DNA of 21,569 nt, taken from the IMG/VR virus record IMGVR_UViG_3300028995_000043, one strand, 5' to 3'. The notes under the pieces are model-generated. The model had not been told where the DNA came from, did no database searches, and worked only from the letters and a program-made list of their open reading frames with translations. How positions within the stretch are numbered: the first letter of the stretch is position 1; every line of letters starts with the position of its first letter. The stretch is from a virus (taxonomy: Duplodnaviria > Heunggongvirae > Uroviricota > Caudoviricetes). Position numbers and translations under genes: made by a program. Shown here in pieces: positions 3,979 through 19,698 of this stretch.

Positions 3979-3990
3979 ACGATCAGTAGA

Positions 3991-4020
3991 GGTGAATAGC
4001 GACCCACGACGCTATTCACC
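3991..4020. terminator. Stem-loop between convergent lysC and Mor-like gene (putative bidirectional terminator)
   Basis: Perfect 10-11 bp inverted repeat ggtgaatagc(g) / (c)gctattcacc with an ~8-nt loop, 13 nt after the lysC stop; no clear U-tract on either strand. Confidence 0.4.
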
Positions 4021-4032
4021 ATGCCGGTTCAA

Positions 4033-4380
4033 TTACGAATTACTGCGGCGCTGTTGCTTTTCCGCATGTACGCGTTTCACTATCTTATAAATCCATTGCA
4101 GCGTCAGATTATATTTCTTCGCTAATTCGGCGTAGTTGCGCCCATCGCACTCGCTATAGATTTGGTAGTCACGCTCCGACGCCCGTCCGGAGATCCCTTT
4201 TGGGAAATAAATGCTTTGCCCGCCCCAGTTGCGCATCATTCGGTCGGCAATGGCAAAGCCCACATTTTCCGCCGATGAACTGTCGAGATTGATGCTTTCA
4301 ATCAGAACTTGCGATGCATGAAAAGCCAGGTCGTTAATGATCTCCGGTGTCCGGACCATCTCTTTTGATTTTCGTATCAT
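4033..4380 (-). CDS. Mor/C-family transcriptional activator (phage Mu middle-operon-regulator-like)
   Basis: 115-aa product with motifs GGQSIYFPKG, IYSECDGRNYAELAKKYNLT and YKIVKR that align with the C-terminal dimerisation/HTH region of Mu Mor as recalled; GGAG Shine-Dalgarno 8 nt before the ATG. Confidence 0.8.
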   Translation of the reverse strand: MIRKSKEMVRTPEIINDLAFHASQVLIESINLDSSSAENVGFAIADRMMRNWGGQSIYFPKGISGRASERDYQIYSECDGRNYAELAKKYNLTLQWIYKIVKRVHAEKQQRRSNS

Positions 4381-4545
4381 TTTTCATCTCCATATATCTT
4401 GCATCCTGAATAAGACCCGATGCGTGTAAAACCACGGATATACGCTAAGCAGTTGTCATTACTGCTACTCAATACATTCAACAAACAAATAAACAATCAC
4501 CAGAAATATAAATTCTTAATATTAATGAACGCATAAATTCACTAA

Positions 4546-4579
4546 ATAAATATATTGTTTGCGTTATGTTTCTTGTCAA
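4546..4579 (-). promoter_or_regulatory. Putative sigma70 promoter for the Mor-like gene
   Basis: Perfect -35 TTGACA on the minus strand (plus coordinates 4574-4579), followed by an AT-rich -10-like hexamer (TATATT/AATATA) at a 17-19 bp spacing; ~160 nt upstream of the Mor-like start. Confidence 0.3.
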
Positions 4580-4600
4580 CAGGAGTATCATTTTACACGA

Positions 4601-4620
4601 TACTGTATGCACATACAGTA
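4601..4620. promoter_or_regulatory. LexA binding site (SOS box)
   Basis: tactgtatgcacatacagta matches TACTG(TA)5CAGTA at both CTGT/ACAG half-sites and both flanking TA pairs, with 3 mismatches confined to the central spacer. The box is bracketed by the 8-bp inverted repeat ttttacac (4591-4598) / gtgtaaaa (4636-4643). Confidence 0.8.
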
Positions 4621-4916
4621 TTATTTTTACCTGTAGTGTAAAAAGATCGTTTCCCTCACAGTCGCTGACTTTCTTAAACAAACTTTAAAAATCAAATAAC
4701 TACTGACTATTCCTACGATTCACCATCATCTTTTCCCTGCATAATGACGCGCTTATTCGCGAGGTCACCTTTTGCTCTTTAATTGCTGAGTGGATTTATT
4801 AGCGGGCATGTTCATTTATAGAGAATCTATTTTTTAAAGTTATTTATTAAAGCTTTTTTCATTCTTCACTGGCGGGTTCTGGCGACACTAAACGCTCACT
4901 TATCAGGAGATACCGT

Positions 4917-5204
4917 ATGAAAAAAGTCACTCTTCCCCGGCTTTCCGGTTGGCTGGTCGCTTCCGTCGCGCTGTTTGTCGTGATCGGCTGGACCTCTTCA
5001 GCACAGATCCCGGTCGTCATTTATAAACTAAGCCTGGTTTCGCTTTCCGCGGTGCTGGGATACTGGCTCGATCGCAGTTTGTTCCCATGGGCACGGCCTG
5101 ACTCTTTTAGCCCATGGAAGGAACCGCGTTGCTGCGCGGCGGCAATGATTCGCCGCGCCATCATCGTTGCCGCCGTCTGTCTTTCCGTCGCCTTAGGGCT
5201 ATAG
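4917..5204 (+). CDS. Holin-like small membrane protein (putative)
   Basis: 95-aa product with three hydrophobic helices (SGWLVASVALFVVIGW, IPVVIYKLSLVSLSAVLGYWL, AIIVAAVCLSVALGL); strong AGGAG Shine-Dalgarno; stop overlaps the start of the downstream transglycosylase gene; first gene of the lysis/tail operon. Confidence 0.5.
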   Translation: MKKVTLPRLSGWLVASVALFVVIGWTSSAQIPVVIYKLSLVSLSAVLGYWLDRSLFPWARPDSFSPWKEPRCCAAAMIRRAIIVAAVCLSVALGL

Positions 5205-5206
5205 TG

Positions 5207-5812
5207 ATGTGGCTGAAATATATCGCGTCTATGATTATTTTCGTTCTTTTCCCTCTTAACGCCTCTGAACCGCCGCGAGCCTCTCTGGCATGGCGAAACG
5301 AACTAATTCGTACCGCTCGAGAAGTCTGGGGACTGAACGCCCCAGTGGCCGACTTTGCCGGGCAATTACACCAGGAGTCCGCCTGGCAGCCAATGGTACG
5401 TTCCCCCGTTGGCGCACAAGGCATGGCGCAATTTATGCCTGCCACAGCGACATGGATAAGCCTGTTGTATCCGCAGCTACGTGAAAATAAGCCCTATAAC
5501 CCAACCTGGGCGATTCGCGCACTGGTGCAATATGACCAGCATTTGTGGAAAAACATCTCAGCGAAAAATGATTGTCAGCGTATGGCGTTTACCCTAAGCG
5601 CCTATAACGGCGGTCAGGGATGGGTTAACCGGGATAAAAAACTGGCTGCATCCAAAGGGTTAGATGCCACTAGCTGGTTTGGTCATGTCGAGCGAGTCAA
5701 CGCCGGGCGCAGCGCCACGAACTGGCGAGAAAATCGTCGCTATCCGAAGATGATCCTCTATCAACATGCCGCCCGCTACCTACTCTGGGGGCAGGCAAGC
5801 TGTCTTCATTAA
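5207..5812 (+). CDS. Lytic transglycosylase (SLT domain) endolysin with N-terminal signal/SAR segment
   Basis: Motifs QLHQESAWQP (catalytic E-S), GAQGMAQFMPATA and AYNGGQGW typical of family-1 lytic transglycosylases; hydrophobic N-terminus MWLKYIASMIIFVLFPLNA. Start chosen at ATG 5207 (GTG 5204 also in frame) rather than the ORF-track start at 5114, which overlaps the holin-like gene. Confidence 0.8.
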   Translation: MWLKYIASMIIFVLFPLNASEPPRASLAWRNELIRTAREVWGLNAPVADFAGQLHQESAWQPMVRSPVGAQGMAQFMPATATWISLLYPQLRENKPYNPTWAIRALVQYDQHLWKNISAKNDCQRMAFTLSAYNGGQGWVNRDKKLAASKGLDATSWFGHVERVNAGRSATNWRENRRYPKMILYQHAARYLLWGQASCLH

Positions 5813-5824
5813 TCAGAGGGGCCG

Positions 5825-6139
5825 ATGAAACTCAGTATCGATTTTTGGGAAGTGATCTCCCTTATGCTTTCCTTCGTTGGATTAATGTTTGCTGCCGGAA
5901 AATTGCTGTTAGCGCAAATTGAAAAAAGACTTAATGAGCGTTTTGAATCTCTGGAAAACGCGCGCCGGGAATCAGAAACAAGTTGGTCGAAACTGGAAAG
6001 AGAATTTCTCGAATTTCGTGCCGAGCTTCCGCTGCATTATGTCCGCAGAGAAGATTATCTTCGTGGCCAGGCAGTATTAGAAGCAAAGCTGGATGCCTTA
6101 TATAGCAAAATAGAGCTATTACAACGCGGTAGCTATTAA
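5825..6139 (+). CDS. Spanin-like protein (i-spanin/Rz-like: N-terminal TM plus coiled coil)
   Basis: 104 aa; N-terminal hydrophobic helix (VISLMLSFVGLMFAAG) followed by a charged, heptad-like helical region; GAGGGG Shine-Dalgarno; sits immediately after the endolysin gene. Confidence 0.45.
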   Translation: MKLSIDFWEVISLMLSFVGLMFAAGKLLLAQIEKRLNERFESLENARRESETSWSKLEREFLEFRAELPLHYVRREDYLRGQAVLEAKLDALYSKIELLQRGSY

Positions 6140-6256
6140 ATTCAATTTTTTCTCTAAAGCAGATTAAAAGATTCTCCACCTTCATTACGTCAGAATACAT
6201 TTCAACGATAACGAAGTGAGCGTTAACGAATCAGCGATAATTAAGGAACACCCTAT

Positions 6257-6712
6257 ATGGAAATTTTATCAGTAATGAATTCTGTTGTGACCAGATTACG
6301 TGAACAGAATCCCGAAATGGATGTATCTATTTCATCGGTTGATACCCATAAATATATTCCGCAGACGCAGCAAGTTACAGTGATTATTAATTATAGCGGT
6401 TCTCTATTTGCCATGCCTGAAAGCAGTGATGCTCTCGTGCAACAGCAAACGCTCCGCTTAACCGCCACCGTTATTGTTGGCAAAAATTGTGATGCGTTAA
6501 ACGCACTGGACCGCATACGCAGCGCATTGGGTGGCCTTCAGCTTCCTGATTGCGATCGTCTTCTTTGGCTTGAAAAAGAAATTAATACGGGTGAGAGCGG
6601 CGGTTTCTGCCGCTACATCCTGGAAATGGCGACCAGCTCGCTGTTTATCGCTGAACAGGAAACCACGGATCTTCCCCTACTTACGGAAGTTAATTACGAG
6701 GAAACTGAATGA
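6257..6712 (+). CDS. Hypothetical protein upstream of the sheath gene (possible tail completion/terminator role by position)
   Basis: 151-aa ORF with good AAGGAA Shine-Dalgarno, translationally coupled to the next gene (ATGA overlap); function inferred only from position in a Mu-like tail module. Confidence 0.55.
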   Translation: MEILSVMNSVVTRLREQNPEMDVSISSVDTHKYIPQTQQVTVIINYSGSLFAMPESSDALVQQQTLRLTATVIVGKNCDALNALDRIRSALGGLQLPDCDRLLWLEKEINTGESGGFCRYILEMATSSLFIAEQETTDLPLLTEVNYEETE

Positions 6713-6906
6713 AATACATCTACAACGGCCCGGCAAGCGGCGTCACCCTTGCCGACGGACAAGAAATCTTATTGTGGCCGAACAGTGAAATTGATCTGCC
6801 AGAAGACAACGAGTGGGTCATGACCATGATTGCCCGCAATCACCTGACTTCTGTCATCACTCAGGAAGAACAAAATAACGGAGAGGAAATTGTACATGGC
6901 AGCTAA
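6709..6906 (+). CDS. Small hypothetical protein conserved upstream of the sheath gene (putative)
   Basis: 65-aa ORF whose start overlaps the preceding stop and whose 3' end overlaps the sheath start; acidic C-terminus. Confidence 0.45.
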   Translation: MKYIYNGPASGVTLADGQEILLWPNSEIDLPEDNEWVMTMIARNHLTSVITQEEQNNGEEIVHGS

Positions 6907-8317
6907 TTATCTGCACGGTGTAGAAACCATTGAAATTGAAACCGGCCCGCGTCCCGTTAAAGCGGTAAAATCCGCCGTCATCGCTTTAATCGGTACGGCC
7001 CCCTGTGGTCCGGTAAATAAACCAACATTATGCCTTTCTGAAAGCGATGCTGCGCAGTTTGGCTCAACTCAGGCTAACTTTACGATCCCACAGGCGCTGA
7101 AGGCGATTTATGACCACGGTGCCGGTACGGTGGTGGTAATTAATGTGCTGGATCCGGTAAAACATGGACTGCATGTTGCCAATGAAACCATTACGTTCAA
7201 TAGTGCCGATAAAGCTAAATTAGCTCATCCGGGAGTAAGTTCAGTAATATTAAGACCAGGTACCAGTTCCACTACGTACAAAAATACATCTTACAATGTT
7301 AATGCCGCAGATGGCGTTATAACCCGTACCGGAACTGAAATCCCGGCAGGGGCGAAGGTTTACGCGACGTATACCTATGTTGATCCTACAAAGGTCACCG
7401 CAGCCGATATTATCGGTGCCGTAAATACCGCAGGCGACCGCACAGGGATGAAACTCCTTCAGGACACCTATAACCTGTATGGTTTCTACGCCAAAATCCT
7501 GCTTGCTCCCGTGTTCTGTACGCAAAAATCAGTAACTACCGAGCTGATTGCACAAGCGGAAAAACTCGGTGCGATTACCTACATTGATGCCCCGATTGGG
7601 ACGACATTCCAGCAGGTATTGGCAGGACGCAGTTCGCAAGGCGCTATCAACTTCAATACCAGCTCTGATCGTGCGCGTTTATGTTACCCACACGTCAAAG
7701 TTTACGATGGCATCACTAACCAGGAAGTTCTCGAACCGCTCTCTTCGCGCGCTGCCGGGCTACGTGCCAAAGTAGACCTCGAAAAAGGTTTCTGGTGGAG
7801 CAACTCAAACCAGGAAATTCAGGGTATTACCGGTATTGAACGTTCGCTTTCCGCAATGATTGATGATCCTCAAAGCGAAGTGAATCAGCTCAACGAAAAC
7901 GGCATTACCACTATTTTCAATAGTTACGGCTCTGGTCTGCGCTTGTGGGGCAACCGCACAGCGGCATGGCCTACCGTGACCCATATGCGTAACTTTGAAA
8001 ACGTCCGCCGGACAGGCGATGTAATTAATGAGTCAATCCGTTATTTCAGTCAGCAGTATATTGATATGCCGATTAATCAGGCGCTGATTGATGCCCTGAC
8101 CGAATCAGTAAATACCTGGGGCCGTAAGCTGATTGCCGACGGCGCACTGCTTGGCTTTGAGTGCTGGTACGATCCGGCGCGAAATTCACCGACTGAACTC
8201 AGCGCTGGGCATTTATTGCTTAGCTATAAATTCACCCCGCCGCCGCCGCTGGAACGTCTGACGTTTGAAACTGAAATTACTTCTGAATATTTAGTCTCTC
8301 TGGAGAGCAATAGCTAA
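6896..8317 (+). CDS. Contractile tail sheath protein
   Basis: N-terminus MAANYLHGVETIEIETGPRPV and C-terminus LLLSYKFTPPPPLERLTFETEITSEYL resemble P2 FI / Mu L sheath proteins as recalled. ATG at 6896 preferred over the TTG at 6890 (GGAGAGGA Shine-Dalgarno 6-8 nt upstream). Confidence 0.9.
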   Translation: MAANYLHGVETIEIETGPRPVKAVKSAVIALIGTAPCGPVNKPTLCLSESDAAQFGSTQANFTIPQALKAIYDHGAGTVVVINVLDPVKHGLHVANETITFNSADKAKLAHPGVSSVILRPGTSSTTYKNTSYNVNAADGVITRTGTEIPAGAKVYATYTYVDPTKVTAADIIGAVNTAGDRTGMKLLQDTYNLYGFYAKILLAPVFCTQKSVTTELIAQAEKLGAITYIDAPIGTTFQQVLAGRSSQGAINFNTSSDRARLCYPHVKVYDGITNQEVLEPLSSRAAGLRAKVDLEKGFWWSNSNQEIQGITGIERSLSAMIDDPQSEVNQLNENGITTIFNSYGSGLRLWGNRTAAWPTVTHMRNFENVRRTGDVINESIRYFSQQYIDMPINQALIDALTESVNTWGRKLIADGALLGFECWYDPARNSPTELSAGHLLLSYKFTPPPPLERLTFETEITSEYLVSLESNS

Positions 8318-8841
8318 TGGCTGGAAAAATTCAAATTAACCGTATTACCAACGCAAATATTTATCTCGATGGTAATAACCTTTTAGGTCGTGCAACCGAA
8401 ATTAAATTGCCGGATGTCAGTTTAATTATGCAGGAGCATAAAGCACTGGGCATGGTCGGCAAAATCGAACTCCCGGCAGGGTTCGATAAACTGGAAGGGG
8501 AAATTAAATGGAACTCCTTTTATCAGGACGTCATGCGTAAAACGGCAAACCCGTGGCAGGCGGTAGCATTACAGTGCCGCTCCAGTATTGATTGCTATAA
8601 CTCCCAGGGGAAAGCGAATCAATTAGCGTTAGTCACTCATTTGACTGTCATGTTTAAAAAGAATCCACTGGGAACATTTAAACAAAATGAAAACCCGGAA
8701 TTCAGCAGCGCCTTTGGTTGCACTTATATTAAACAAGTGGTCGATGGTGAAACGCTGCTTGAACTTGATTATATGGCGAATATTTTTCGGGTTAACGGCG
8801 TGGATCAATTAAGTACCTATCGCAATAACATCGGTGGCTAA
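8317..8841 (+). CDS. Tail tube protein
   Basis: 174-aa product immediately after the sheath gene (TAATG overlap); size and position typical of P2 FII / Mu M tube proteins. Confidence 0.8.
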   Translation: MAGKIQINRITNANIYLDGNNLLGRATEIKLPDVSLIMQEHKALGMVGKIELPAGFDKLEGEIKWNSFYQDVMRKTANPWQAVALQCRSSIDCYNSQGKANQLALVTHLTVMFKKNPLGTFKQNENPEFSSAFGCTYIKQVVDGETLLELDYMANIFRVNGVDQLSTYRNNIGG

Positions 8842-8891
8842 GTTATTCGGGGCTACGGCCCCGAACTTCGCAAAATAAATAAGGATACAAA

Positions 8892-9209
8892 ATGAAAGAG
8901 CATTATATCTTACAGTTCCCGTTTACTTCAGCGGCGGGAGACGTAATTAACACTCTGCAATTACGTCGCCTGAAAGTAAAAGATATGCGCAACGCGCGCC
9001 GGATCAGCGAAAAGCCAGAAGAGTGGGATGAACCGCTAATGGCGGCAATGACCGGACTGGTGCCAGAAGATTTAGCTGAAATGGATTTGCTGGATTACCA
9101 GGCATTGCAGAAACGATTTCAATCCATGCTTACCGTGGTTACAGAATCCTCCCCTGCTATGGCAGGCAATGGCGTTACTGGCGAGATGGTTTCGCTTTCC
9201 GCCCAGTGA
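8892..9209 (+). CDS. Tail assembly chaperone (P2 gpE-like position)
   Basis: 105-aa acidic protein between tube and tape-measure genes; AAGGA Shine-Dalgarno; an overlapping out-of-frame extension follows (next feature). Confidence 0.65.
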   Translation: MKEHYILQFPFTSAAGDVINTLQLRRLKVKDMRNARRISEKPEEWDEPLMAAMTGLVPEDLAEMDLLDYQALQKRFQSMLTVVTESSPAMAGNGVTGEMVSLSAQ

Positions 9210-9297
9210 GATAGACGCCCTTACCGTCGATGACTTTAGCAACTGGCTGGATGAAGCCAGCGCTCAAATAAAGATCGAATATGACTCGCAGACCTGA
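9076..9297 (+). other. +1-frame ORF overlapping the 3' end of the chaperone gene: candidate programmed-frameshift extension (E+E'-like)
   Basis: The frame offset +1 from the chaperone is open from 9076 to a TGA at 9295-9297 and encodes ...RFPPSEIDALTVDDFSNWLDEASAQIKIEYDSQT. CUU-U (9195-9198) and GUU-U (9189-9192) are possible slip sites. A hairpin (actcgcaga...tctgcgagt, 9284-9307) follows. Confidence 0.35.
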
Positions 9298-9397
9298 TGT
9301 CTGCGAGTCCTTTAAAGCCCGCCAGGTTTATTTCTTCCCAGCCCATTTTTCAGAAAACTAACCAGCGGGCCATCACCAATCTATAAGAGAAACAATT

Positions 9398-11749
9398 TTG
9401 GCCAACGATATTATTACCCAGCTTCAGGCGCGTAATGAGACGTTGACGCAGGCAATAGCCCGTTACGGCTCACTCAACGCCAGAACTTTGTTAGCTCTCT
9501 CTTCTCAGCAAGCGACAGTAATCAAACTAACGCAGCAACTTGCCGATTCTGCTCTCCACCTGGAGGAAAATAGCCGCAGCCGCGCTAATCTGATGGAGAA
9601 AACCCACACATTTGCCGGGCAATTTAGCAAAGTATTCAATGTTGAAGCCCCCGATTGGAAGTTGCCGTATGAGTTCCAGGACAACATGGTCAATATGGCG
9701 ACCAAAGGTGGGATGAATGATACAACCCGCGAGACGCTCAGCCTTAATCTGCGCGACTGGAGCATGGATTTTAACCAGCATCAGACCACCTTACAGAACG
9801 CAGCCCAAACGCTGATCGAAGGCAATTTGTCGTCGATACAGGATCTCAACCGTTATATGCCGGAGATCGCCAAAGCTGCCACCGCCACGCGCGAAAGTAC
9901 TGAAACATGGGCGAATGCCGCGCTCGCAACCCATGATCGACTGAATATTGCGCCAGAAAATTTCCACGCCGCGCAAAACATGATGTACGGCATTAGCAAA
10001 AGCGGTGGGCCTGCCGTTGCCGAGCAAACGCAGTGGATAGACAAATTTGCAGGTAAAACCGGCGCTCAGGGTCTGGAAGGTATGACTGAACTGACTGCCG
10101 CCATGCAGATCGCCATGAAAAACGGGGCCAGCGCCAGTGCGGCGGCTGAGAATTTTGACCACTTTCTGCAAACCACCTTTTCGAAAAAAACCGATAGCTG
10201 GTTCGCCAGCCAGGGCGTCGATTTGCAAGGCTCTCTGCTTGAACATCAGCAAAACGGTATGAGTGTTAGCGAAGCCATGACTCATATCGTGCAAATGCAG
10301 CTTGAGAAGATGAATCCGGCGATCCTCGACACCTTCAAACGCACTATGCAGATTGAAGATTTATCTGCTCGCAGCACTGCGCTGCAATCGATGGTGGCGC
10401 AATTTAATCTGGGCGAAATGTTCGGCGATGCGCAAACGGTGGAATTCCTGGCACCTATGCTGGCGAATATGGAGGAATATCGCCAGTTAAAAGCCTCTGC
10501 CATGCAAACTACCAGCAAGAATCTGATTAACGCTGACTTTTCTGCGCAAATGGCCTCGCCCATTGAACAGACTAAAGCGTTACAACTGGCGTTAAATGAT
10601 TTATGGCTCAGCATTGGCTTGCAGCTTATGCCGGCGATTGGCGAGCTGGCACAAAGCCTTGCGCCGGTTATTCGCCAGTTCAGTGCCTGGCTACGCGAAC
10701 ATCCGGCGCTGGTGCAAAACATTGCGAAAATCGTCGGGGCGATTTGGCTGTTTAACGGTGCGCTTAATGTTTTAAAGCTGGGCGCGAACCTCATCGCCTC
10801 GCCGTTTATTCGTCTGGTCGATATCTTCCTGAAAGTCAGGGCAAGTCTGGCCCTCGGCGGCGCGGCAAGTAAAGTGCTATCGGCGGTTAAGTCATTGGGT
10901 GGCGGCGCAAAATGGCTAACGCAACTGCTTGGTCGTGGCCTGATCGGAGCATTGAAACTGTTTGGTCGAACCGTTCTCTCGCTAGGCCGGGTGTTATTGA
11001 TGAATCCCATTGGTCTGGTCATCACTGCGATTGCGGGCGCGGCTTATCTGATTTATCGCAACTGGGAACCTATCTCCAGGTTCTTTTCGACCATCTGGCA
11101 ACGTATCACCACGGCCTTTGACGGCGGCATTGCAGGAATTTGTCGGTTGATTCTCGACTGGTCACCGCTGGAGTTGTTCTATAGCGCCTTTTCCGATGTG
11201 ATGAATTGGTTTGGTGTTGAGATGCCTGCGAGTTTTAGCGAGTTCGGCAGCAATATACTGGGTAGCCTGGCCGACGGCATAATGAATGCTTTCCCCGCAC
11301 TGAAAGGCATTATTGATCAGGTCAAAAACGCCATGCCAGACTGGCTAAAAGCCACAATGGGTATCAGCACAGAAGCATCGGCTGCGGCTGTTACAGGCAC
11401 GGCTAATACCGCATCAGTCTCCCCCGCGACCGTTGTTCCAGGCGTTGCCGGTGCGATTTTAACGCTGCCGGTGGGCAAACAACTCGCGCCATCCGGCAAA
11501 ACGGCTACGCCGTCATCGGCAAAACCCGCGTCGGCCTCTTTACCTGGTAAATCCGTAACCAAACCGGCGACGCTACCCTCCCGTTCCCCGGGAAAAGTCC
11601 AGGTGAATTTTTCGCCACAAATTACCGTGCAGGGTAACGGACAAAACACCACTAAAGAGATTCAGAACGTGTTGACGATGAGTAAACGCGAACTGGAAAG
11701 AATGATTAACGATGTAATGGCGCAGCAGCAGCGCCGGGGGTATGCCTGA
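9398..11749 (+). CDS. Tail tape measure protein
   Basis: 783 aa, helical N-terminal half, central hydrophobic/Gly-Ala-rich segment (IVGAIWLFNGALNVLKLGANLIASPF...GLVITAIAGAAYLIY) and position after the chaperone are typical of tape measure proteins. Apparent TTG start at 9398 with AAGAGA upstream; start uncertain. Confidence 0.8.
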   Translation: MANDIITQLQARNETLTQAIARYGSLNARTLLALSSQQATVIKLTQQLADSALHLEENSRSRANLMEKTHTFAGQFSKVFNVEAPDWKLPYEFQDNMVNMATKGGMNDTTRETLSLNLRDWSMDFNQHQTTLQNAAQTLIEGNLSSIQDLNRYMPEIAKAATATRESTETWANAALATHDRLNIAPENFHAAQNMMYGISKSGGPAVAEQTQWIDKFAGKTGAQGLEGMTELTAAMQIAMKNGASASAAAENFDHFLQTTFSKKTDSWFASQGVDLQGSLLEHQQNGMSVSEAMTHIVQMQLEKMNPAILDTFKRTMQIEDLSARSTALQSMVAQFNLGEMFGDAQTVEFLAPMLANMEEYRQLKASAMQTTSKNLINADFSAQMASPIEQTKALQLALNDLWLSIGLQLMPAIGELAQSLAPVIRQFSAWLREHPALVQNIAKIVGAIWLFNGALNVLKLGANLIASPFIRLVDIFLKVRASLALGGAASKVLSAVKSLGGGAKWLTQLLGRGLIGALKLFGRTVLSLGRVLLMNPIGLVITAIAGAAYLIYRNWEPISRFFSTIWQRITTAFDGGIAGICRLILDWSPLELFYSAFSDVMNWFGVEMPASFSEFGSNILGSLADGIMNAFPALKGIIDQVKNAMPDWLKATMGISTEASAAAVTGTANTASVSPATVVPGVAGAILTLPVGKQLAPSGKTATPSSAKPASASLPGKSVTKPATLPSRSPGKVQVNFSPQITVQGNGQNTTKEIQNVLTMSKRELERMINDVMAQQQRRGYA

Positions 11750-12702
11750 TGTATGCCGTTTTAGGAGAGATTGAATTTAAAGTTGTCACATTCTGGGACG
11801 GCTTTAAAAGCACAATGGGCGTGGATTACGCCACACATGCCCGTATAGAAGGCAAACCCGGCGTGCAGTTTATTGGCGATAAGCTGGATATGCTGGCGCT
11901 GGAATTTTCCCTGCACAGCCAGTTTTGCCAACCCACAACAGAGCTGAATCGACTGCGTGAAGCCATGCTTGCTCACAAAGCAATGGCGCTGGTGTTTGGC
12001 AACGGAGATTATCGCGGCTGGTTTGTAATTACAGAGTTAACCGCCACTCACCAGCACACCGATCCCTGGGGCAATGTCATTGCCCAAAGCGGAACAATGT
12101 CGCTCCAGGAGTATACCGGCGATCCGAAAAACCCACTGCTGCCCCCGGCAATTACCACCCAGGAGCCTAATATCGAGGAAAAGGCGAGCGATTTTCCGAA
12201 TAAGGTGGAGTCCTGGTTGTATCAGATATTGAACGCCATTGAAGAAGGTATGCGCAAAGCCAAAGAGATGCTCGATGAACTGGCGCAAACCATTGAAGAT
12301 ATTAAAAAAACAGTGGCAAAAGTGAAAGCACTGATTAAAGAGGCCAAAGCGTTAAAAGAAAAGTGTGAAAAGATAATTACGTCGTTGAAAAAGACTATCG
12401 ACGCCATCGAAACCCTGTTTAAACAGCCAATGGATCTGCAAATGCTGGCAGGACTCCCAAAAGCGTTGTCGGCTCAGATTAAAGCTTTACTGGGTAACAT
12501 GCCAGGTATACGGGACTGCGCCAATGACGCCAGTACGCTGGTTGACCATGCTCAGACACTTTTCGACGACATTGCCAGCAACATCGCCGAAGCGACGTTT
12601 GATAAAGCCGCAACGTTGGTTGATCAGGCACGAACAACGGTACAACAAACCACTCCCGCAGTGAGCCAGCTTGCTGCCGCGACCATTACGAGGAGCTGGT
12701 AA
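11749..12702 (+). CDS. Tail protein, P2 gpU / Mu N (DNA-circularisation) family N-terminal domain with C-terminal coiled-coil extension
   Basis: N-terminal ~130 aa (MYAVLGEIEFKV...LREAM...GWFVITEL) align with P2 gpU as recalled; the C-terminal ~190 aa are K/E-rich coiled coil; start overlaps the tape-measure stop (ATGA-type coupling). Confidence 0.7.
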   Translation: MYAVLGEIEFKVVTFWDGFKSTMGVDYATHARIEGKPGVQFIGDKLDMLALEFSLHSQFCQPTTELNRLREAMLAHKAMALVFGNGDYRGWFVITELTATHQHTDPWGNVIAQSGTMSLQEYTGDPKNPLLPPAITTQEPNIEEKASDFPNKVESWLYQILNAIEEGMRKAKEMLDELAQTIEDIKKTVAKVKALIKEAKALKEKCEKIITSLKKTIDAIETLFKQPMDLQMLAGLPKALSAQIKALLGNMPGIRDCANDASTLVDHAQTLFDDIASNIAEATFDKAATLVDQARTTVQQTTPAVSQLAAATITRSW

Positions 12703-12911
12703 TGCGATACCTTGAACATATCACCACCGATGGCGAACGCTGGGATAACCTGGCCTGGCATTACTACGGCGATGCACTGGCTTATGAACGCATTATCGCA
12801 GCCAATCCACATGTCGCCATTTATCCGGTACTGCCTTCCGGTATTCAGCTCATCATTCCGGTCATTTCCGTCAATAAAACCTTATCGGAGATCCCACCAT
12901 GGCTGAGATAA
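12702..12911 (+). CDS. Tail protein X (P2 gpX-like)
   Basis: 69 aa; W..YYG...AANP...LP.G...P pattern matches P2 gpX as recalled. Confidence 0.7.
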   Translation: MRYLEHITTDGERWDNLAWHYYGDALAYERIIAANPHVAIYPVLPSGIQLIIPVISVNKTLSEIPPWLR

Positions 12912-13939
12912 GCGTAACTGGCGGCGTCTTTGCAACACTCACGCCCATTTTTACCCTCTGGTATGGGCATAAAGATATCACTTATGACATCACGCCTTAT
13001 GTCACCAGCATCAGTTACCAGGACAGTATTAAAAACGAGTCGGATACCATCGCGATTACACTGGATGACACCGATGGACGCTGGATAAAAGAGTGGTATC
13101 CCGGCAAAGGCGATACGCTGGCGCTGCATATGGGTTATCAGGGGGAAAAGCTGCTCGATTGTGGTCAGTATATTATTGATAAAATTGATATTTCATCGCC
13201 ACCTTCTACGGTAAATATTGATGGCATCGCCACTTCCGTCAATCAGGCGCTACGCACGCGTAACAGCCAGGGCTTTGAAGAGACGACGCTTTCGGCTATC
13301 GCCAGCCGTATCGCGCAAACGCACGGTCTGAAACTGGTGGGCAAAATCGAGCCGCTCACCATCGACCGGGTAACGCAGTATGGTGAAACCGATGTTGGAT
13401 TTCTCAAACGTCTGGCCAGTGAATATGGTTATGCCGTAAAAGTGACGACAAAAGAGCTGATTTTTTCACATTTACCCACGCTGCGCTGCCTGGCACCGGT
13501 AAAAACGATCGACCGCAAAGACGTTTCGCATTTCACCTTCAAAGATACCATTAACCGTATCTACAAAAACGCCACCGTACAGCATCAAAATAGTAAGAAA
13601 AAAGAACTGGTTATCTACACCCACGACAGCCAGCAAAAACCGTCTGCCCGTGGAGTCGGCACCAGTGCCGACACGCTAAAACTGAACAGTCGGGCGACGG
13701 ACATTGGCGCAGCACAGGCAAAGGCCAACGCTGCACTCGACAGCCACAACGAATATCAGCAAACCGGAACGCTCACAATGATGGGCTGCCCGGAACTGAC
13801 GGCGGGCAATAAAATTGAACTGACCGATTTTGGCGTGCTTTCCGGTCAGTGGCTGATTGATAAATCTACTCACAGTTTTGTGCGCAGCGGCTATACCACT
13901 GAAATCGACGTGTCACGCGGGCCAGCGACCAGCCAGTAA
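12899..13939 (+). CDS. Baseplate hub / late control protein D family (P2 gpD-like, Mu P-like)
   Basis: 346 aa; size, position after gpX and overall similarity to gpD-family proteins; GGAG Shine-Dalgarno; overlaps the gpX 3' end. Confidence 0.8.
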   Translation: MAEISVTGGVFATLTPIFTLWYGHKDITYDITPYVTSISYQDSIKNESDTIAITLDDTDGRWIKEWYPGKGDTLALHMGYQGEKLLDCGQYIIDKIDISSPPSTVNIDGIATSVNQALRTRNSQGFEETTLSAIASRIAQTHGLKLVGKIEPLTIDRVTQYGETDVGFLKRLASEYGYAVKVTTKELIFSHLPTLRCLAPVKTIDRKDVSHFTFKDTINRIYKNATVQHQNSKKKELVIYTHDSQQKPSARGVGTSADTLKLNSRATDIGAAQAKANAALDSHNEYQQTGTLTMMGCPELTAGNKIELTDFGVLSGQWLIDKSTHSFVRSGYTTEIDVSRGPATSQ

Positions 13940-13948
13940 GGAGGAAAT

Positions 13949-14650
13949 ATGAAAGGAGTAACCCGGCAAACGGGGATTATCAGCGATATTGACGAAACCA
14001 GCGTTCGGGTGCGAGTCACGCTTCCAGAGTGTGACAATCTGAAGAGCAACTGGCTTGCGGTACTTCAACGCAATTCCCAGGACAATAAAGACTACTGGCT
14101 ACCGGACATGGGAGAGCAGGTGGAGGTTCTGCTGGATGATAACGGTGAAGATGGCGTGGTGCTGGGCGCAGTATATTCAACGGTAGATACCGCGCCAGTA
14201 GCATCGCGCGACAAACGCTATGTCCAGTTTTCCGATGGCGCAGCGTTTGAATATGACCGCAGCACCCACCAGCTTACGATTAACGGTGGTATCGAAAAAA
14301 TCGTGATTGAGGTTATCGACCGTACCAGCCTGATATCGCCCAACGTTGAGGTTAAAGCCCAACACGTCACCGTGACTTCCGACACTGTTGATGTGAAAGC
14401 CACCGACGTCAGCATTGAAGCCAGTAAGGTCGATGTTAAAGCGATGGCTGTAACGGTAGACGCACCGCTCAGTACCTTTACCGGCAACGTCACGGTGATG
14501 AAAAAACTCACCTGGCTTGGTGGGATGGCAGGAAGTGGAGGCATCGGTAACACCGCCACGATAACCGGCAATGTCAACGTGATCGGCAACGTTCAGGCCA
14601 GCGGCGCATTGCAGGACAGCGGTGGCAACTCCAACCACCATTCACACTGA
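13949..14650 (+). CDS. Baseplate central spike (P2 gpV-like)
   Basis: N-terminal region aligns with P2 gpV (GEQV...DGA..EY...T..LT..G); C-terminal repetitive V/T-rich beta-helix-like segment ending in a His cluster (NHHSH), as at the gpV apex; perfect AAGGAGG Shine-Dalgarno. Confidence 0.85.
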   Translation: MKGVTRQTGIISDIDETSVRVRVTLPECDNLKSNWLAVLQRNSQDNKDYWLPDMGEQVEVLLDDNGEDGVVLGAVYSTVDTAPVASRDKRYVQFSDGAAFEYDRSTHQLTINGGIEKIVIEVIDRTSLISPNVEVKAQHVTVTSDTVDVKATDVSIEASKVDVKAMAVTVDAPLSTFTGNVTVMKKLTWLGGMAGSGGIGNTATITGNVNVIGNVQASGALQDSGGNSNHHSH

Positions 14651-14655
14651 CTTTT

Positions 14656-14686
14656 AACCCGCCTGATAGCGGGTTTTCTCTTTTTA
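14656..14686 (+). terminator. Intrinsic terminator-like hairpin inside the tail operon (between spike and gpW genes)
   Basis: 7-bp GC-rich stem aacccgc/gcgggtt with loop ctgata, followed by ttctcttttt; begins 6 nt after the spike gene stop. Confidence 0.5.
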
Positions 14687-14748
14687 ATCAATCAGTTTTC
14701 TAAATCGCTTTAATATCTCCACAGCCCGTTCAGGGCGAAAATACCCTC

Positions 14749-15108
14749 ATGAACACAAAAACACGCCCCTCAACGCTGCACTGGCAACCGGCCTTGCAGC
14801 GGCCTGAAGAATACGTCTGCGGACTGGATGATATTCACCAGGCAATACACATCATTCTGCGTACACCGCGCGGCAGTGATCCCCACAGACCGCTGTTTGG
14901 CAGCAATTTGTGGCACTACATCGATTATCCCATCGAGCGGGCGATCCCGCATGTGGTACGGGAGTCGGTAGAGGCCATCCGCCAGTGGGAACCGCGCTGC
15001 CGGTTGCTGAAGGTGACACCTGTAATCGACGGTGAACATCTGACGTTACGTGTGCAATGGCGCGCCGCTGACGGCGTAATCAACTCAACGGAGGTGTTAT
15101 GGCGATAG
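14749..15108 (+). CDS. Baseplate wedge protein (P2 gpW / T4 gp25 family)
   Basis: 119 aa; ILRTPRGS...LFGS and WEPR motifs shared with P2 gpW as recalled. Confidence 0.8.
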   Translation: MNTKTRPSTLHWQPALQRPEEYVCGLDDIHQAIHIILRTPRGSDPHRPLFGSNLWHYIDYPIERAIPHVVRESVEAIRQWEPRCRLLKVTPVIDGEHLTLRVQWRAADGVINSTEVLWR

Positions 15109-16214
15109 CCGAACCCAATTTTATTGAACGCGATCCTGCGCAAATTACCAGCGAGATGATTGCGCAATACGAAGATGCCAGCGGCAAAAAGCTCTACCCG
15201 GCACAGGCCGAGCGGTTGCTGATTGACCTTTTTGCCTATCGTGAAAACCTTGTACGCATCGCCATTCAGGAAGCGGCGAAACAGAACCTGGTCGCGTATT
15301 CCCGCGCGCCAATGCTGGATTATTTAGGGGAGCTGGTGGGCGTTCATCGTTTGCCTGCGCAGTCAGCAAAAACGACGTTGCAGTTTTCGGTTGTCAGTGC
15401 GTATACCAGCAATATCCTGATTCCCCAGGGGACGCGGGCCAGTGCCTCTGATAGCGTGATGTTCGCCACCGATGAAGATGTTCTGCTCCCGGCCAGGAGT
15501 TTGCATATCGCCGTTCCTGCCACCAGCCTCGCAGCAGGTGAACAGGGTAACGGCTGGCAGCCTGCACAAATTAGCGCTCTGGTCGACAGGATTGGTCATT
15601 ATGACATCAACGTAATCAACCTGACTGCGTCAACGGGCGGCTGCGGTGAAGAGAGCGATGACGCATTGCGCCAGCGTATCCAACTGGCACCAGAAAGCTT
15701 TAGTAATGCGGGCAGCTATGGTGCCTACCGCTTTCATACGCTTTCCGTAAGCCAGTCGATTATTGACGTTGCAGTACTGGGGCCGGACGAGGGATTGCCA
15801 GAAGGCTGCGTGGAGATCTACCCGCTAACCCTGAACGGACTGCCGGGAATAGAACTGCTCGCGCAAATCGAACAGGAGGTTAGCAAGGAGAAAAAACGTC
15901 CGCTGACCGACAAAGTGAGTGCGAAATGCGCTCTTCGAGTGCCGTATGAGATCCGTGCGCAGCTAACGCTGTTTACCACCGCCGATCAGGAGACAACTCT
16001 GGCTGCGGCGCGTAAAGCGATTAGCCTCTGGACGCAACAGCGGCAGAAACATCTGGGGCAGGACATTGTGCCAAACCAGATAATCAAAGTGTTACAGGTC
16101 GATGGCGTCTATGACGTTGTGCTGAACTTGCCTACAAAACGTATTTTGCAGGCGCATGAATGGGCGGAATGCACTGCAATAGACGTAACGATCGCCGGAG
16201 TTAGCGATGGATAA
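15099..16214 (+). CDS. Baseplate protein J (P2 gpJ-like)
   Basis: 371 aa; position and size typical of baseplate J; overlaps the gpW 3' end and the gpI 5' end (coupled). Confidence 0.8.
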   Translation: MAIAEPNFIERDPAQITSEMIAQYEDASGKKLYPAQAERLLIDLFAYRENLVRIAIQEAAKQNLVAYSRAPMLDYLGELVGVHRLPAQSAKTTLQFSVVSAYTSNILIPQGTRASASDSVMFATDEDVLLPARSLHIAVPATSLAAGEQGNGWQPAQISALVDRIGHYDINVINLTASTGGCGEESDDALRQRIQLAPESFSNAGSYGAYRFHTLSVSQSIIDVAVLGPDEGLPEGCVEIYPLTLNGLPGIELLAQIEQEVSKEKKRPLTDKVSAKCALRVPYEIRAQLTLFTTADQETTLAAARKAISLWTQQRQKHLGQDIVPNQIIKVLQVDGVYDVVLNLPTKRILQAHEWAECTAIDVTIAGVSDG

Positions 16215-16839: not shown

Positions 16840-16841
16840 TT

Positions 16842-18611: not shown

Positions 18612-18615
18612 ACAG

Positions 18616-19677: not shown

Positions 19678-19698
19678 CGCCGGGCTTTATGCCCGGCG
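19678..19698. terminator. Hairpin between convergent tail operon and NTase operon (putative bidirectional terminator)
   Basis: 8-bp GC-rich stem cgccgggc/gcccggcg with loop tttat, overlapping the NTase stop codon; modest U-richness downstream on the minus strand. Confidence 0.4.

What the first reader, a model, noticed from the sequence alone, without database searches (positions are those of the whole stretch)
4033..4916. Mu Mor-family activator transcribed away from the structural operon across a ~540-bp AT-rich leader
In Mu, Mor and C are co-directional with the genes they activate. Here the only activator homologue is divergent from the lysis/tail operon and convergent with lysC. No plausible ORF lies in the 4621-4916 region (only 8-11 codon reading frames), so it is an untranslated leader or promoter region. 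The Mor-dependent promoter probably lies about 4800-4900, where AT-rich dyads (tttaaag...taaagc) occur. The implied cascade is LexA, then Mor-like activator, then tail operon.
Basis: inference. Interest (0 to 1): 0.45.

Follow-up and report, generated by a model that had tools for sequence, protein, structure and literature searches.

The report
LexA-gated Mor activator of a tailocin
The gene is an intact Mu Mor/C-type activator kept in a headless, BcepMu-phage-derived tail (tailocin) island next to lysC in E. coli; it probably switches on the lysis and tail genes after DNA damage, which makes it a new variant of a known kind of circuit.

Summary
ORF 4033-4380 (-) is an intact Mor/C-family activator (Pfam 6e-38; Mu Mor and C structures hit). 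It is convergent with lysC and separated from the holin by a 536-bp, 34% GC spacer with no conserved ORF.

- **Polarity.** The divergent polarity is not an oddity. The island is a deletion derivative of a BcepMu-like transposable phage, and in BcepMu the Mor homologue gp01 already lies on the strand opposite all late genes.
- **LexA box.** A strong LexA box (4601-4620) is the only one in the window. It is conserved in 11 of 12 enterobacterial lineages and absent near mor in about 70 other Mor loci.
- **SOS induction.** The Salmonella orthologue rises 4-fold with nalidixic acid in a published dataset. The direction of the LexA-controlled promoter cannot be settled from sequence.
- **Late-promoter box.** A 16-bp box (TAAAG-N5-TAAAAG, 20 nt, then a -10) is shared with BcepMu, Chromobacterium and other relatives. 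It marks a canonical promoter before gp37 (6155-6196) and a weaker, positionally conserved one before gpW (14699-14742).
It is the best-conserved non-coding block, but only a half-canonical box.

The closest precedent is Pectobacterium RdgA/RdgB. Verdict: new variant of a known kind.

The parts
3989..4021 (.). Perfect 11-bp inverted repeat (GGTGAATAGCG...CGCTATTCACC) between the stop codons of lysC and mor. It is a possible bidirectional terminator or stabiliser with no T-run. It is part of the inserted DNA.
   Evidence: Read from the sequence. Homology to K-12 ends one base after the lysC stop codon. It was not flagged by the terminator scan.
4033..4380 (-). Mor/C-family late activator, orthologue of BcepMu gp01 and Salmonella STM4219/STM14_5073. 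It carries the GG-x3-Y-x-P-x-G linker (G53 G54 Y58 P60 G62) and a C-terminal HTH, and has no clamp-binding motif.
   Evidence: family. (49.5% identity to gp01). (purifying selection). (no clamp-binding motif). (family invariants).
4381..4916 (.). 536-bp spacer at 34% GC that serves as the control region. It has no conserved ORF and no known RNA family.
4590..4595 (-). A -10-like TAAAAT element of a candidate mor-directed promoter. Its -35 would fall inside the LexA box (CTGTAT, poor), with an A-rich UP-like tract upstream. The predicted TSS is about 4583, giving a leader of about 200 nt.
   Evidence: Read from the alignment. CATTTTACAC is conserved in 10 of 11 box-bearing lineages, and a T-rich tract follows the box on the plus strand in all of them. 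The total PWM score is below the threshold used.
4592..4619 (+). Sigma70-like promoter TTTACA-16-TACAGT pointing toward the holin. The LexA box covers its spacer and -10.
   Evidence: It is the only consensus match in 3900-5100 and the only positionally conserved promoter prediction across lineages.
4601..4620 (.). LexA operator TACTGTATGCACATACAGTA. It matches the consensus at 17 of 20 positions, with CTGT/ACAG and the flanking TA intact.
   Evidence: It is the single CTGT-N8-ACAG in 21.6 kb, against 0.16 expected by chance. It is conserved in 11 of 12 lineages and absent within 1.5 kb of mor in about 70 other Mor loci.
4646..4689 (-). Motif A, a degenerate late-promoter box on the mor strand (TAAAG TTTGT TTAAGA, 4687->4672), then 20 nt, then AACGAT (4651->4646). 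It may be a Mor-dependent auto-activation promoter, with the LexA box at about +19 to +38. An IHF-like site (AATCAA-N4-nTR) is the alternative reading.
   Evidence: It is conserved in 8 of 12 lineages. It is one of three TAAAG-N3-8-TTAAR matches in the window. The PWM score is weak in E. coli and Salmonella and 11.2 bits plus TACACT in Dryocola.
4829..4889 (+). Plys. The invariant block ATTTTTTAAAGTTATTTATTAAAG plus TTTTCnTTCTTC (4829-4868) is followed by the -10 GACACT (4884-4889). The predicted TSS is about 4896, giving a 21-nt leader, with the RBS AGGAG at 4905-4909. The left half-site TAAAG (4848-4852) sits exactly at the canonical distance of 36 bp from the -10. The right half-site is replaced.
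   Evidence: conservation and uniqueness. (canonical geometry and the 21-nt leader in BcepMu Plys). (only about 6 bits by PWM).
4917..6139 (+). Lysis cassette: holin (BcepMu gp21-like), SLT endolysin (gp22-like) and a gp25-like lipoprotein. There is no Rz/Rz1.
6153..6196 (+). Ptail, a canonical Mor-type promoter. It has the 16-bp box TAAAGCAGATTAAAAG (6155-6170; as a dyad TCTAA-AGCAGA-TTAAA, 6153-6168), a 20-nt gap and the -10 CAGAAT (6191-6196). The predicted TSS is about 6203, so the dyad centre is at about -42.5.
   Evidence: A PWM built from betaproteobacterial sites alone gives 23.9 bits here; the next-best window site is 15.0, the null 95th percentile is 16.2 and the null maximum is 23.0.
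6257..14650 (+). Tail unit 1, syntenic with BcepMu gp37-gp48: gp37, gp38-like, sheath, tube, chaperone, tape measure, gpU, gpX, gpD, gpV.
14656..14686 (+). Intrinsic terminator after gpV (AACCCGC-ctgata-GCGGGTT followed by a T-rich run).
   Evidence: Read. Conserved.
14699..14742 (+). PW. It has the dyad TCTAA-ATCGCT-TTAAT (14699-14714), then 22 nt, then the -10 GAAAAT (14737-14742). The predicted TSS is about 14749, which is the A of the gpW ATG, and no Shine-Dalgarno is present, so a leaderless mRNA is possible.
   Evidence: (15.0 bits, second-best site in the window). The same arrangement is found before BcepMu gp49 and in a Superficieibacter-like locus.
14749..19673 (+). Tail unit 2: gpW, gpJ, gpI, tail fibre, DUF4376 protein and orf151.

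Best explanation
**What it is.** The window carries an island of about 18 kb inserted exactly after the lysC stop codon. It is a domesticated, headless derivative of a BcepMu-like transposable phage. It keeps only gp01 (the Mor/C-type late activator), the holin/SLT lysis genes and the gp37-gp51 contractile-tail genes. That gene content is the make-up of an R-type tailocin.

**Polarity.** The activator gene faces away from the late genes because that is the polarity in the ancestral phage. Deletion of the early, transposition and immunity genes brought the two arms together. The phage repressor was replaced by a host LexA operator.

**Proposed mechanism**
1. Inferred, with one supporting dataset: LexA bound at 4601-4620 keeps mor low. 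After DNA damage LexA is cleaved and mor is transcribed leftward. The source is a weak promoter whose -35 lies in the box, possibly reinforced by a Mor-dependent promoter at motif A.
2. Inferred from comparative sequence: Mor binds 16-bp pseudo-dyad boxes centred near -42.5 that replace the -35 element, as Mu Mor and C do. It thereby activates Ptail (6155-6196), PW (14699-14742) and the half-canonical Plys (4829-4896).
3. Inferred from gene content: tails assemble and holin plus transglycosylase lyse the producer to release them.

The weaker, non-canonical Plys box could delay lysis relative to tail synthesis. This last point is speculative.
For: **Family and selection.** Family membership rests. 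Strong purifying selection is shown.

**Origin of the island**
- The window is 100% identical to the E. coli A10 chromosome. The full element is present in 189 of 5426 complete E. coli genomes.
- It replaces 121 bp between lysC and yjbD in K-12.
- Its proteins match BcepMu gp01, gp21, gp22, gp25 and gp37-gp51 in order.
- In BcepMu, gp01 is on the minus strand and the late genes on the plus strand.
- The same lysC-adjacent divergent layout occurs in Salmonella, Dryocola, Phytobacter, Superficieibacter and an Enterobacter-like lineage.

**LexA**
- There is a single strong box in the window, conserved in 11 of 12 lineages.
- No box lies near mor in about 70 other Mor loci.
- STM14_5073 is 348 bp and adjacent to lysC, so I assign it as the orthologue of STM4219. 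It is up 4.08-fold with nalidixic acid in Dataset S1 of PMC8072944.

**Late-promoter box**
- TAAA[GC]-N5-TA[AC]AAGA occurs 12 times in 892 kb of Mor loci, against 0.32 expected. All 12 lie immediately upstream of late genes. The sites are BcepMu gp21 and gp32, two MAG phages between mor and holin, Chromobacterium and Rivihabitans gp37, and enterobacterial gp37.
- Eleven of 15 matches to the 16-bp core have an nAnnAT hexamer exactly 20 nt downstream.
- A PWM from non-enterobacterial sites alone picks 6154 as the top window site at 23.9 bits; none of 100 shuffles reached this (null maximum 23.0).
- The geometry matches the published Mor and C sites: 16 bp, 5-bp inverted repeats with a G/C-rich 6-bp spacer, centred at -43.5, with no -35.
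- Terminators precede Ptail in 9 lineages and precede PW.
Against: - The sigma70-like promoter with the best consensus at the LexA box points rightward, toward the holin. The leftward alternative has a poor -35.
- The Salmonella dataset lists no lysis or tail gene (STM14_506x-507x) as differentially expressed while mor is up 4-fold. The second step of the cascade is therefore unsupported there. That paper also did not list the gene among its LexA-box genes.
- Plys and motif A score only about 1-11 bits with the box PWM.
- PW at 15.0 bits is below the null 95th percentile of 16.2. It rests on positional conservation.
- The TAAAG-N3-8-TTAAR count used a pattern designed after seeing the sites.
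- No binding, TSS or particle data exist for this island. One lineage (L187) has lost the LexA box and degraded its boxes.
Confidence: 0.6

Rival explanations
1. LexA directly controls a rightward promoter (TTTACA-16-TACAGT, TSS about 4626) that reads through the spacer into the holin and tail genes. Mor would then be made from another promoter (constitutive or auto-activated) and only boosts late transcription. The operator module could also be bidirectional.
For: - It is the only sigma70-like consensus match in 3900-5100.
- It is the only positionally conserved promoter prediction, found in 9-10 of 11 lineages.
- No terminator is predicted between 4626 and 4917 in the window.
- TTTACA is kept even in Dryocola, where a base is inserted.
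Against: - The Salmonella RNA-seq shows the mor orthologue induced 4-fold but no holin or tail gene in the differential list.
- TACAGT is part of any good LexA box, and TTTACA overlaps the complement of a leftward -10 (TAAAAT). The conservation therefore does not discriminate between the two directions.
- In one Salmonella lineage (L160) the hexamer is TACAGC.
Confidence: 0.2
2. Block 2 (4829-4868) and motif A (4673-4696) are not Mor sites. They would be UP elements or sites for host nucleoid proteins (IHF, Fis, H-NS) in an AT-rich, silenced spacer. Plys would then not depend on Mor, and only Ptail and PW would be Mor promoters.
For: - PWM scores are low for both elements.
- Motif A carries AATCAA-N4-nTR next to an A-tract. 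By my reading, this resembles the IHF consensus WATCAANNNNTTR.
- The spacing of the two TAAAG repeats in block 2 is 13 bp rather than 11 bp.
- The spacer is 34% GC, which is typical of H-NS-bound DNA (established knowledge).
Against: - The left half-site TAAAG at 4848 lies exactly 36 bp from the conserved -10, as in every canonical site. The leader length of 21 nt equals that of BcepMu Plys, which has a canonical box.
- Block 2 is invariant across genera whose flanking DNA is about 50% identical.
- Mu Pm also has an A/T-rich alpha-CTD site just upstream of the Mor site.
Confidence: 0.25
3. The island is a silent relic. The Mor gene and its boxes persist without a current function, and no tail particles are made.
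For: - No tail-gene induction is listed in Salmonella 14028.
- The element is absent from most E. coli, being present in 189 of 5426 genomes.
- One lineage has lost the LexA box.
- Rz/Rz1 spanins are missing.
- PHASTER-type tools call it an 'incomplete' prophage.
Against: - dN/dS is about 0.03 for mor across genera with saturated dS.
- All tail ORFs are intact in the window.
- Operator and promoter islands are invariant inside an otherwise roughly 50%-identical spacer.
- The element sits at the same site in at least five genera.
Confidence: 0.07

Closest known systems
Bacteriophage Mu Mor (middle) and C (late) activators with promoters Pm, Plys, PI, PP and Pmom
   Same: - Same protein family, including the invariant GG...Y.P.G linker and the C-terminal HTH.
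- Target promoters have a -10 but no -35.
- A 16-bp imperfect dyad (5-bp repeats with a G/C-rich 6-bp spacer) is centred near -43.
- Several late promoters are served by one activator.
   Different: - One activator instead of the Mor-then-C two-step.
- The gene lies on the strand opposite its targets.
- A different box sequence (TAAAG-N5-TAAAAG).
- A host LexA box in place of the phage repressor and early promoter.
- No clamp-binding motif, whereas MuC needs the beta-clamp.
Burkholderia phage BcepMu gp01 and its late genes (Bcepmuvirus)
   Same: - Closest phage homologue at 49.5% identity.
- Same divergent polarity.
- Same holin/SLT/gp25 genes and same gp37-gp51 tail gene order.
- Same box before the holin and before gpW.
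   Different: BcepMu is a complete transposable phage with transposase, GemA, repressor, heads and Rz/Rz1. Its gp01 ends an early operon and carries the C-terminal RQRDLF clamp-binding motif. The island has none of these features and has a LexA box.
Pectobacterium RdgA/RdgB (DNA-damage induction of pectin lyase, co-induced with carotovoricin and lysis)
   Same: - The logic is the same: a DNA-damage signal relieves a repressor, and a Mor-family activator (RdgB) encoded in the chromosome then switches on damage-inducible genes.
- RdgB homologues are about 50% identical to the window protein and likewise lack the clamp-binding motif.
- That RdgB resembles Mor, and that pectin lyase, carotovoricin and lysis are co-induced, is from my own knowledge of Liu, Chatterjee & Chatterjee 1994 and McEvoy et al. 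1992.
   Different: - Rdg uses a dedicated S24/LexA-like repressor gene (rdgA) immediately upstream and co-directional. Here there is no such gene, only a host LexA operator.
- rdgAB is not linked to the tail genes, whereas here the activator abuts its targets.
Pseudomonas aeruginosa PrtR/PrtN control of R- and F-pyocins
   Same: A two-tier, SOS-linked cascade (repressor, then small activator, then lysis and tail genes) for a chromosomal tailocin (established knowledge).
   Different: PrtN is not a Mor/C protein and binds P-boxes. PrtR is a cI-like repressor cleaved via RecA. The pyocin tail is P2-derived, not BcepMu-derived.

Membership tests
[quoted passage not shown] | Sequence match to the family profile and to Mu Mor and C | tested here: met
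   Pfam 6.3e-38 at 129.5 bits against a cut-off of 24.9. PHROG 532 at 1.9e-35. 1RR7 at 5.6e-8 and 9L0X at 7e-5.
[quoted passage not shown] | Small size (100-150 aa), invariant beta-strand linker G-G-x3-Y-x-P-x-G, C-terminal HTH and a basic C-terminal half | tested here: met
   The protein is 115 aa. It has G53 G54 Y58 P60 G62 with the same spacing as C residues 70/71/75/77/79. The HTH region aligns to Mor residues 58-121. The C-terminal half has 12 K/R against 6 D/E; the N-terminal half is about neutral (read).
[quoted passage not shown] | Acts at promoters with a -10 and no -35, through a 16-bp imperfect dyad centred near -43.5 | tested here: inconclusive
   Such promoters are predicted at 6153-6196 and 14699-14742, with a half-canonical one at 4829-4889. 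Their geometry is shared with BcepMu and other relatives. Binding and activation were not tested.
[quoted passage not shown] | Clamp-binding motif (N-terminal Qx[DE][LM]F or C-terminal QPDLF), proposed as a general family property (PMC12867686) | tested here: not met
   There is no such motif at either end of the window protein or of any of the other tail-only cluster and RdgB homologues examined; 24 of 24 lack it. It is present in 47 of 48 phage-borne homologues. This feature is a recent proposal and not part of the family definition.
R-type tailocin (phage tail-like bacteriocin) | Contractile tail gene set (sheath, tube, tape measure, baseplate, fibre) plus a lysis cassette, without head, replication or integration genes | tested here: met
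   No portal, terminase, capsid, transposase or integrase lies between lysC and yjbD.
R-type tailocin (phage tail-like bacteriocin) | Particles are produced, released by lysis and kill related strains | not testable with these tools
   No experimental report was found for this island.
LexA (SOS) regulon | CTGT-N8-ACAG operator overlapping or next to a promoter | tested here: met
   TACTGTATGCACATACAGTA at 4601-4620 matches the consensus at 17 of 20 positions. It is the only such box in the window, it overlaps promoter-like elements on both strands and it is conserved.
LexA (SOS) regulon | Induction by DNA damage, dependent on LexA cleavage | tested here: inconclusive
   The Salmonella orthologue STM14_5073 rises 4.08-fold with nalidixic acid. 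LexA dependence was not tested, and the gene is not in that paper's LexA-box table.
RdgA/RdgB-type damage-inducible regulator pair | Mor-family activator preceded by a co-directional S24 (LexA/cI-like) repressor gene | tested here: not met
   Pectobacterium loci have the order S24 repressor, ORF, Mor. The window has no S24 or HTH repressor gene in the island.

The most novel reading that the evidence does not exclude
Domesticated Mor activators have become independent of replication. Phage-borne members of this subfamily carry a C-terminal beta-clamp-binding motif (47 of 48). All 24 members found in non-replicating chromosomal settings have lost it. Those settings are the enterobacterial lysC tail island, Chromobacterium and Rivihabitans tail clusters, and Pectobacterium RdgB.

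In the E. coli island this clamp-free activator would sit in a LexA-gated, self-activating switch, with motif A facing mor. Its three late promoters would have graded box quality: canonical Ptail, weaker PW and half-canonical Plys. That grading would time tail assembly before lysis.
Probability: 0.3. Interest if true: 0.65.

Novelty: new variant of a known kind. Interest (0 to 1): 0.5.

Why it matters
- **Unstudied but widespread element.** The island sits at one chromosomal site in Salmonella (STM4201-4219), some E. coli and several other Enterobacteriaceae. Its function and control are essentially unstudied. A defined circuit of LexA box, one Mor-type activator and three mapped candidate promoters makes it directly testable. 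It could be switched on at will in K-12-like hosts to ask whether it makes bactericidal tails.
- **Late-promoter box for the BcepMu clade.** The 16-bp box gives a late-promoter signature for the whole BcepMu clade of transposable phages and their tailocin derivatives.
- **Test case for the clamp proposal.** The loss of the clamp-binding motif in every domesticated homologue examined is a natural test of the recent proposal that Mor/C activators generally need the beta-clamp.

Tried and rejected
- **Conserved small ORF or RNA in the spacer.** None was found.
- **Terminator between the LexA box and Plys.** Hairpins appear in some lineages (strong in L005) but not consistently, and there is none in the window. 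I dropped this idea.
- **Block-2 motif in IMG/VR.** The scan gave 110 hits. Only about 20 are copies of this same island and the rest are chance matches in AT-rich DNA. No phage carries that motif.
- **Neighbour orientation from raw ORFs.** This was too noisy in GC-rich genomes to use. I replaced it with homology to BcepMu genes.
- **First regex for the box.** It was mis-specified and missed the Chromobacterium sites. I corrected it.
- **TACACT as a conserved leftward -10 after motif A.** This holds only in E. coli and Dryocola.
- **The ST131 'tailocin' paper.** It concerns a different, P2/R2-pyocin-like element.
- **Literature on the island itself.** Searches for a Mor-regulated tailocin or for STM4212-4219 regulation found nothing specific.
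- **PADLOC.** No defence-system hit for the RlaP and slipin pair.
Full report
**What the window is.** The sequence is E. coli chromosome, 100% identical to strain A10. The gene order is:
- pgi (-);
- the lysine riboswitch (2341-2537);
- lysC (+);
- the Mor-like gene (4033-4380, -);
- a 536-bp spacer;
- a plus-strand run of holin, SLT transglycosylase, a small lipoprotein, gp37, sheath, tube, chaperone, tape measure, gpU/X/D/V/W/J/I, fibre and two fibre-associated ORFs.

There are no head, replication, transposition or integration genes. Compared with K-12, homology stops one base after the lysC stop codon and resumes about 250 bp before yjbD. About 18 kb has replaced 121 bp. The full element is present in 189 of 5426 complete E. 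coli genomes.

**The observation.** The ORF is a full-length Mor/C-family protein.
- It matches Pfam at 6.3e-38, PHROG 'late transcriptional activator' at 1.9e-35, Mu Mor 1RR7 at 5.6e-8 and Mu C at 7e-5.
- It carries the invariant G-G-x3-Y-x-P-x-G linker described for the family.
- Orthologues from Salmonella, Dryocola, Phytobacter, Superficieibacter and an Enterobacter-like lineage are 81-91% identical. dS is saturated and dN/dS is about 0.03. It is not a decayed fragment.
- The spacer is 34.3% GC and has no ORF conserved across genera and no Rfam match.
- No other regulator is encoded in the island.

Two details need adjusting: ORFs of 22-67 aa, not 8-11 codons, can be drawn in the spacer, and 'leader' undersells what the spacer contains.

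**Origin and polarity.** The nearest phage homologue is BcepMu gp01 at 49.5% identity. Island proteins match BcepMu gp01, gp21 (holin), gp22 (SLT), gp25 and gp37-gp51 in the same order. Sheath and tube are about 70% identical.

In BcepMu, gp01 is the last gene of the leftward early operon. All lysis, head and tail genes run rightward. The island is what remains after loss of gp02-gp20 and gp23-gp36, so its divergent polarity is inherited. Chromobacterium and Rivihabitans tail clusters with about 50%-identical Mor genes are divergent too. Two MAG phages have mor directly upstream of, and co-directional with, the holin.

PHASTER-style annotation already labels the Salmonella Infantis counterpart an incomplete, conserved 'BcepMu' prophage.

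**The spacer.** I aligned 12 non-redundant lineages whose spacers are only about 50-60% identical. Four islands of conservation stand out.
1. CATTTTACAC-N2-TACTGTAT-N4-ATACAGT (4588-4620). The LexA box matches the consensus at 17 of 20 positions. It is the only CTGT-N8-ACAG in the window, against 0.16 expected. None of about 70 other Mor loci has a box within 1.5 kb of mor. One lineage (L187) has lost it.
2. Motif A, TTAAACAAACTTTAAAAATCAA (4674-4696), present in 8 of 12 lineages.
3. Block 2, ATTTTTTAAAGTTATTTATTAAAG plus TTTTCnTTCTTC (4829-4868). It is unique in the window even allowing 3 mismatches.
4. A -10-like GAYACT (4884-4889) and the holin RBS.

**Which way the LexA-controlled promoter fires.**
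- Rightward: TTTACA-16-TACAGT is the only consensus match and the only positionally conserved prediction.
- Leftward: TAAAAT (4595->4590) is a good -10. Its -35 falls in the box and is poor. A conserved T-rich tract on the plus strand just right of the box would be an A-rich UP-like element for it.

Sequence alone cannot decide between these. Independent evidence comes from Dataset S1 of PMC8072944.
- STM14_5073 is a 348-bp gene at the position and orientation of the mor orthologue, about 11 kb from malE and on the opposite strand. It corresponds to STM4219.
- It rises 4.08-fold (49 to 204.5) with nalidixic acid.
- That table lists differentially expressed genes from the strongest induction down to about -23-fold. 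It contains no other STM14_506x-507x gene.

This favours a mor-directed, damage-inducible promoter. It also means that tail-gene induction was not detected in that strain and condition.

**A late-promoter box shared with BcepMu.** Between the lipoprotein gene and gp37, all 12 lineages conserve TTTTTTCTCTAAAGCAGATTAAAAGA. In 9 of them it is preceded by a strong intrinsic terminator, which is deleted in the window lineage.

The same element, TAAAG-N5-TAAAAGA, stands out in about 65% GC Chromobacterium DNA upstream of gp37. Searching TAAA[GC]-N5-TA[AC]AAGA in 892 kb of Mor loci gave 12 hits, against 0.32 expected. All 12 lie just upstream of late genes:
- BcepMu gp21 (holin) and gp32 (head protease);
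- two MAG phages, between mor and holin;
- four Chromobacterium loci and Rivihabitans, before gp37;
- Dryocola, Salmonella and the window, before gp37.

Eleven of 15 matches to the 16-bp core have an nAnnAT hexamer exactly 20 nt downstream. A PWM built only from the betaproteobacterial sites ranks window position 6154 first at 23.9 bits. The next site scores 15.0. The null best-score distribution has median 12.4, 95th percentile 16.2 and maximum 23.0.

Read as a dyad, the box is TnTAA-N6(G/C-rich)-TTAAA, 16 bp long. It is perfect in Rivihabitans and in the MAG phages. With the -10 CAGAAT at 6191-6196, its centre lies at about -42.5. Published Mu Mor and C sites are 16-bp imperfect dyads with a G/C-rich 6-bp spacer centred at -43.5, at promoters lacking a -35. 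Ptail is thus a textbook Mor-type promoter by sequence.

**A third unit, PW.** The second-best PWM site (15.0 bits) lies in the gpV-gpW gap, directly after an intrinsic terminator (14656-14686). The dyad TCTAA-ATCGCT-TTAAT (14699-14714) is followed at the canonical spacing by GAAAAT. The predicted start is the A of the gpW ATG, and no Shine-Dalgarno is present. BcepMu has the same arrangement before gp49, and a Superficieibacter-like locus conserves it. On score alone this site is not significant. Its support is positional conservation.

Block 2 is not a canonical box; the PWM gives about 6 bits. However, its second TAAAG (4848-4852) lies exactly 36 bp upstream of the conserved -10, as the left half-site does in every canonical promoter. 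The predicted 21-nt leader equals that of BcepMu Plys, which does have a canonical box. The right half-site is replaced by a conserved TTTTCGTTC. A further TAAAG lies 13 bp upstream in an A/T-rich tract, where Mu Pm has its alpha-CTD site. I read Plys as a modified Mor-type promoter. This is an inference, at about 0.6.

**Motif A.** On the mor strand, motif A is a degenerate box followed after 20 nt by AACGAT. This would put the LexA box at about +19 to +38 and would allow Mor auto-activation. The score is convincing only in Dryocola, and an IHF-like reading is equally possible.

**Comparison with known systems.**
- The logic (DNA damage, then repressor relief, then a Mor-family activator, then damage-inducible lysis or bacteriocin genes) is already known from Pectobacterium RdgA/RdgB. 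Thirteen of my loci are that cassette: S24 repressor, ORF, Mor, among housekeeping genes (Liu et al. 1994 as cited).
- Carotovoricin is described there as a Mu-type tailocin under SOS control.
- The pyocin PrtR/PrtN pair is the functional analogue in Pseudomonas.

What differs here is direct use of the host LexA operator, physical linkage of the activator to its targets, and BcepMu ancestry. I found no paper linking a Mor activator to a tailocin or describing regulation of STM4212-4219. The searchable library is incomplete.

**Side finding on the clamp-binding motif.** MuC needs the beta-clamp through QxDLF-type motifs, and the authors propose that this is general for the family.
- In this subfamily, 47 of 48 homologues flanked by transposable-phage early genes end in RQxD[LM]F.
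- None of 11 tail-only clusters has the motif, and none of 13 RdgB-type genes does. None of these has an N-terminal motif either.
- In a crude NJ tree the four motif-less groups are separate branches.

This fits activators of non-replicating elements having shed clamp dependence. It needs a proper phylogeny and experiments.

**Verdict.** The gene is the single late activator of a LexA-linked, BcepMu-derived tailocin island. Its orientation is ancestral. Its best-supported targets lie before gp37 and gpW as well as before the holin. This is a new variant of a known kind. Interest is moderate at 0.5.

Noticed in passing
window 4033-4062 (C-terminus of the Mor-like protein); loci L002-L075, L190: A C-terminal clamp-binding motif (RQxD[LM]F) is present in 47 of 48 phage-borne homologues. 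It is absent from all 11 tail-only clusters and all 13 Pectobacterium/Samsonia RdgB-type genes. The window allele ends QQRRSNS, whereas most island orthologues end QRRML.
   Followed up: partly
L006 4758-6327 (and L007, L008, L010, L011, L013-L015, L025, L026, L034, L035): Pectobacterium and Samsonia carry a chromosomal cassette of an S24/HTH repressor, a 100-aa ORF and a Mor-family gene among housekeeping genes. This is the RdgA/RdgB damage-inducible regulator pair.
   Followed up: partly
window 6139-6150, compared with L076, L088, L002-L005, L162, L177: Nine lineages have a strong intrinsic terminator (AAATCCCCG...CGGGGATTTTTT) right after the lipoprotein gene. The window lineage and L113 have lost it, so Plys transcripts could read into the tail genes here.
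   Followed up: no
window 5825-6139: The lysis cassette has no Rz/Rz1 spanin pair (BcepMu gp23/24). The third gene matches BcepMu gp25 and PHROG 462 'lipoprotein' instead.
   Followed up: no
window 14737-14751: The predicted PW start coincides with the gpW ATG and no Shine-Dalgarno is present. The same holds for BcepMu gp49, which suggests a leaderless gpW mRNA.
   Followed up: partly
window 19687-21542 (-): An RlaP-family nucleotidyltransferase and an SPFH/slipin gene overlap by 4 bp and lie inside the inserted segment, at its right end. PADLOC gives no hit.
   Followed up: partly
L177 and L003 (orf104-gp37 gap); L004 (mor 5' region): Insertions of 60-130 bp with ERIC/IRU-like sequence (AAGTAAGTGACTGGGGTGAGC in L177) interrupt non-conserved parts of the regulatory regions in some lineages. 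The ERIC identification is from memory of the consensus.
   Followed up: no
L187 2496-3000 (Enterobacter-like lineage): This lineage has lost the LexA box and the TTTACA/TAAAAT element, and its block 2 and Ptail box are degraded, although mor is intact. This may reflect decay or rewiring.
   Followed up: no
L066 5639-5836: Rivihabitans has a small Ner-like ORF (my reading of the translated sequence, not profile-tested) between the tail-operon promoter region and mor, co-directional with mor. It has no LexA box.
   Followed up: no
window 4643-4651 and the Salmonella and Phytobacter equivalents: GATC (Dam) sites are conserved within AAAAAGATCG between the LexA box and motif A: one in E. coli, three in Salmonella and two in Phytobacter. 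They overlap the candidate leftward -10.
   Followed up: no
window 6257-6712: gp37 is far more divergent between lineages (41-62% identity) than its neighbours (sheath 79-83%, tube 90-94%). This suggests a recombination junction at the start of the tail unit.
   Followed up: no
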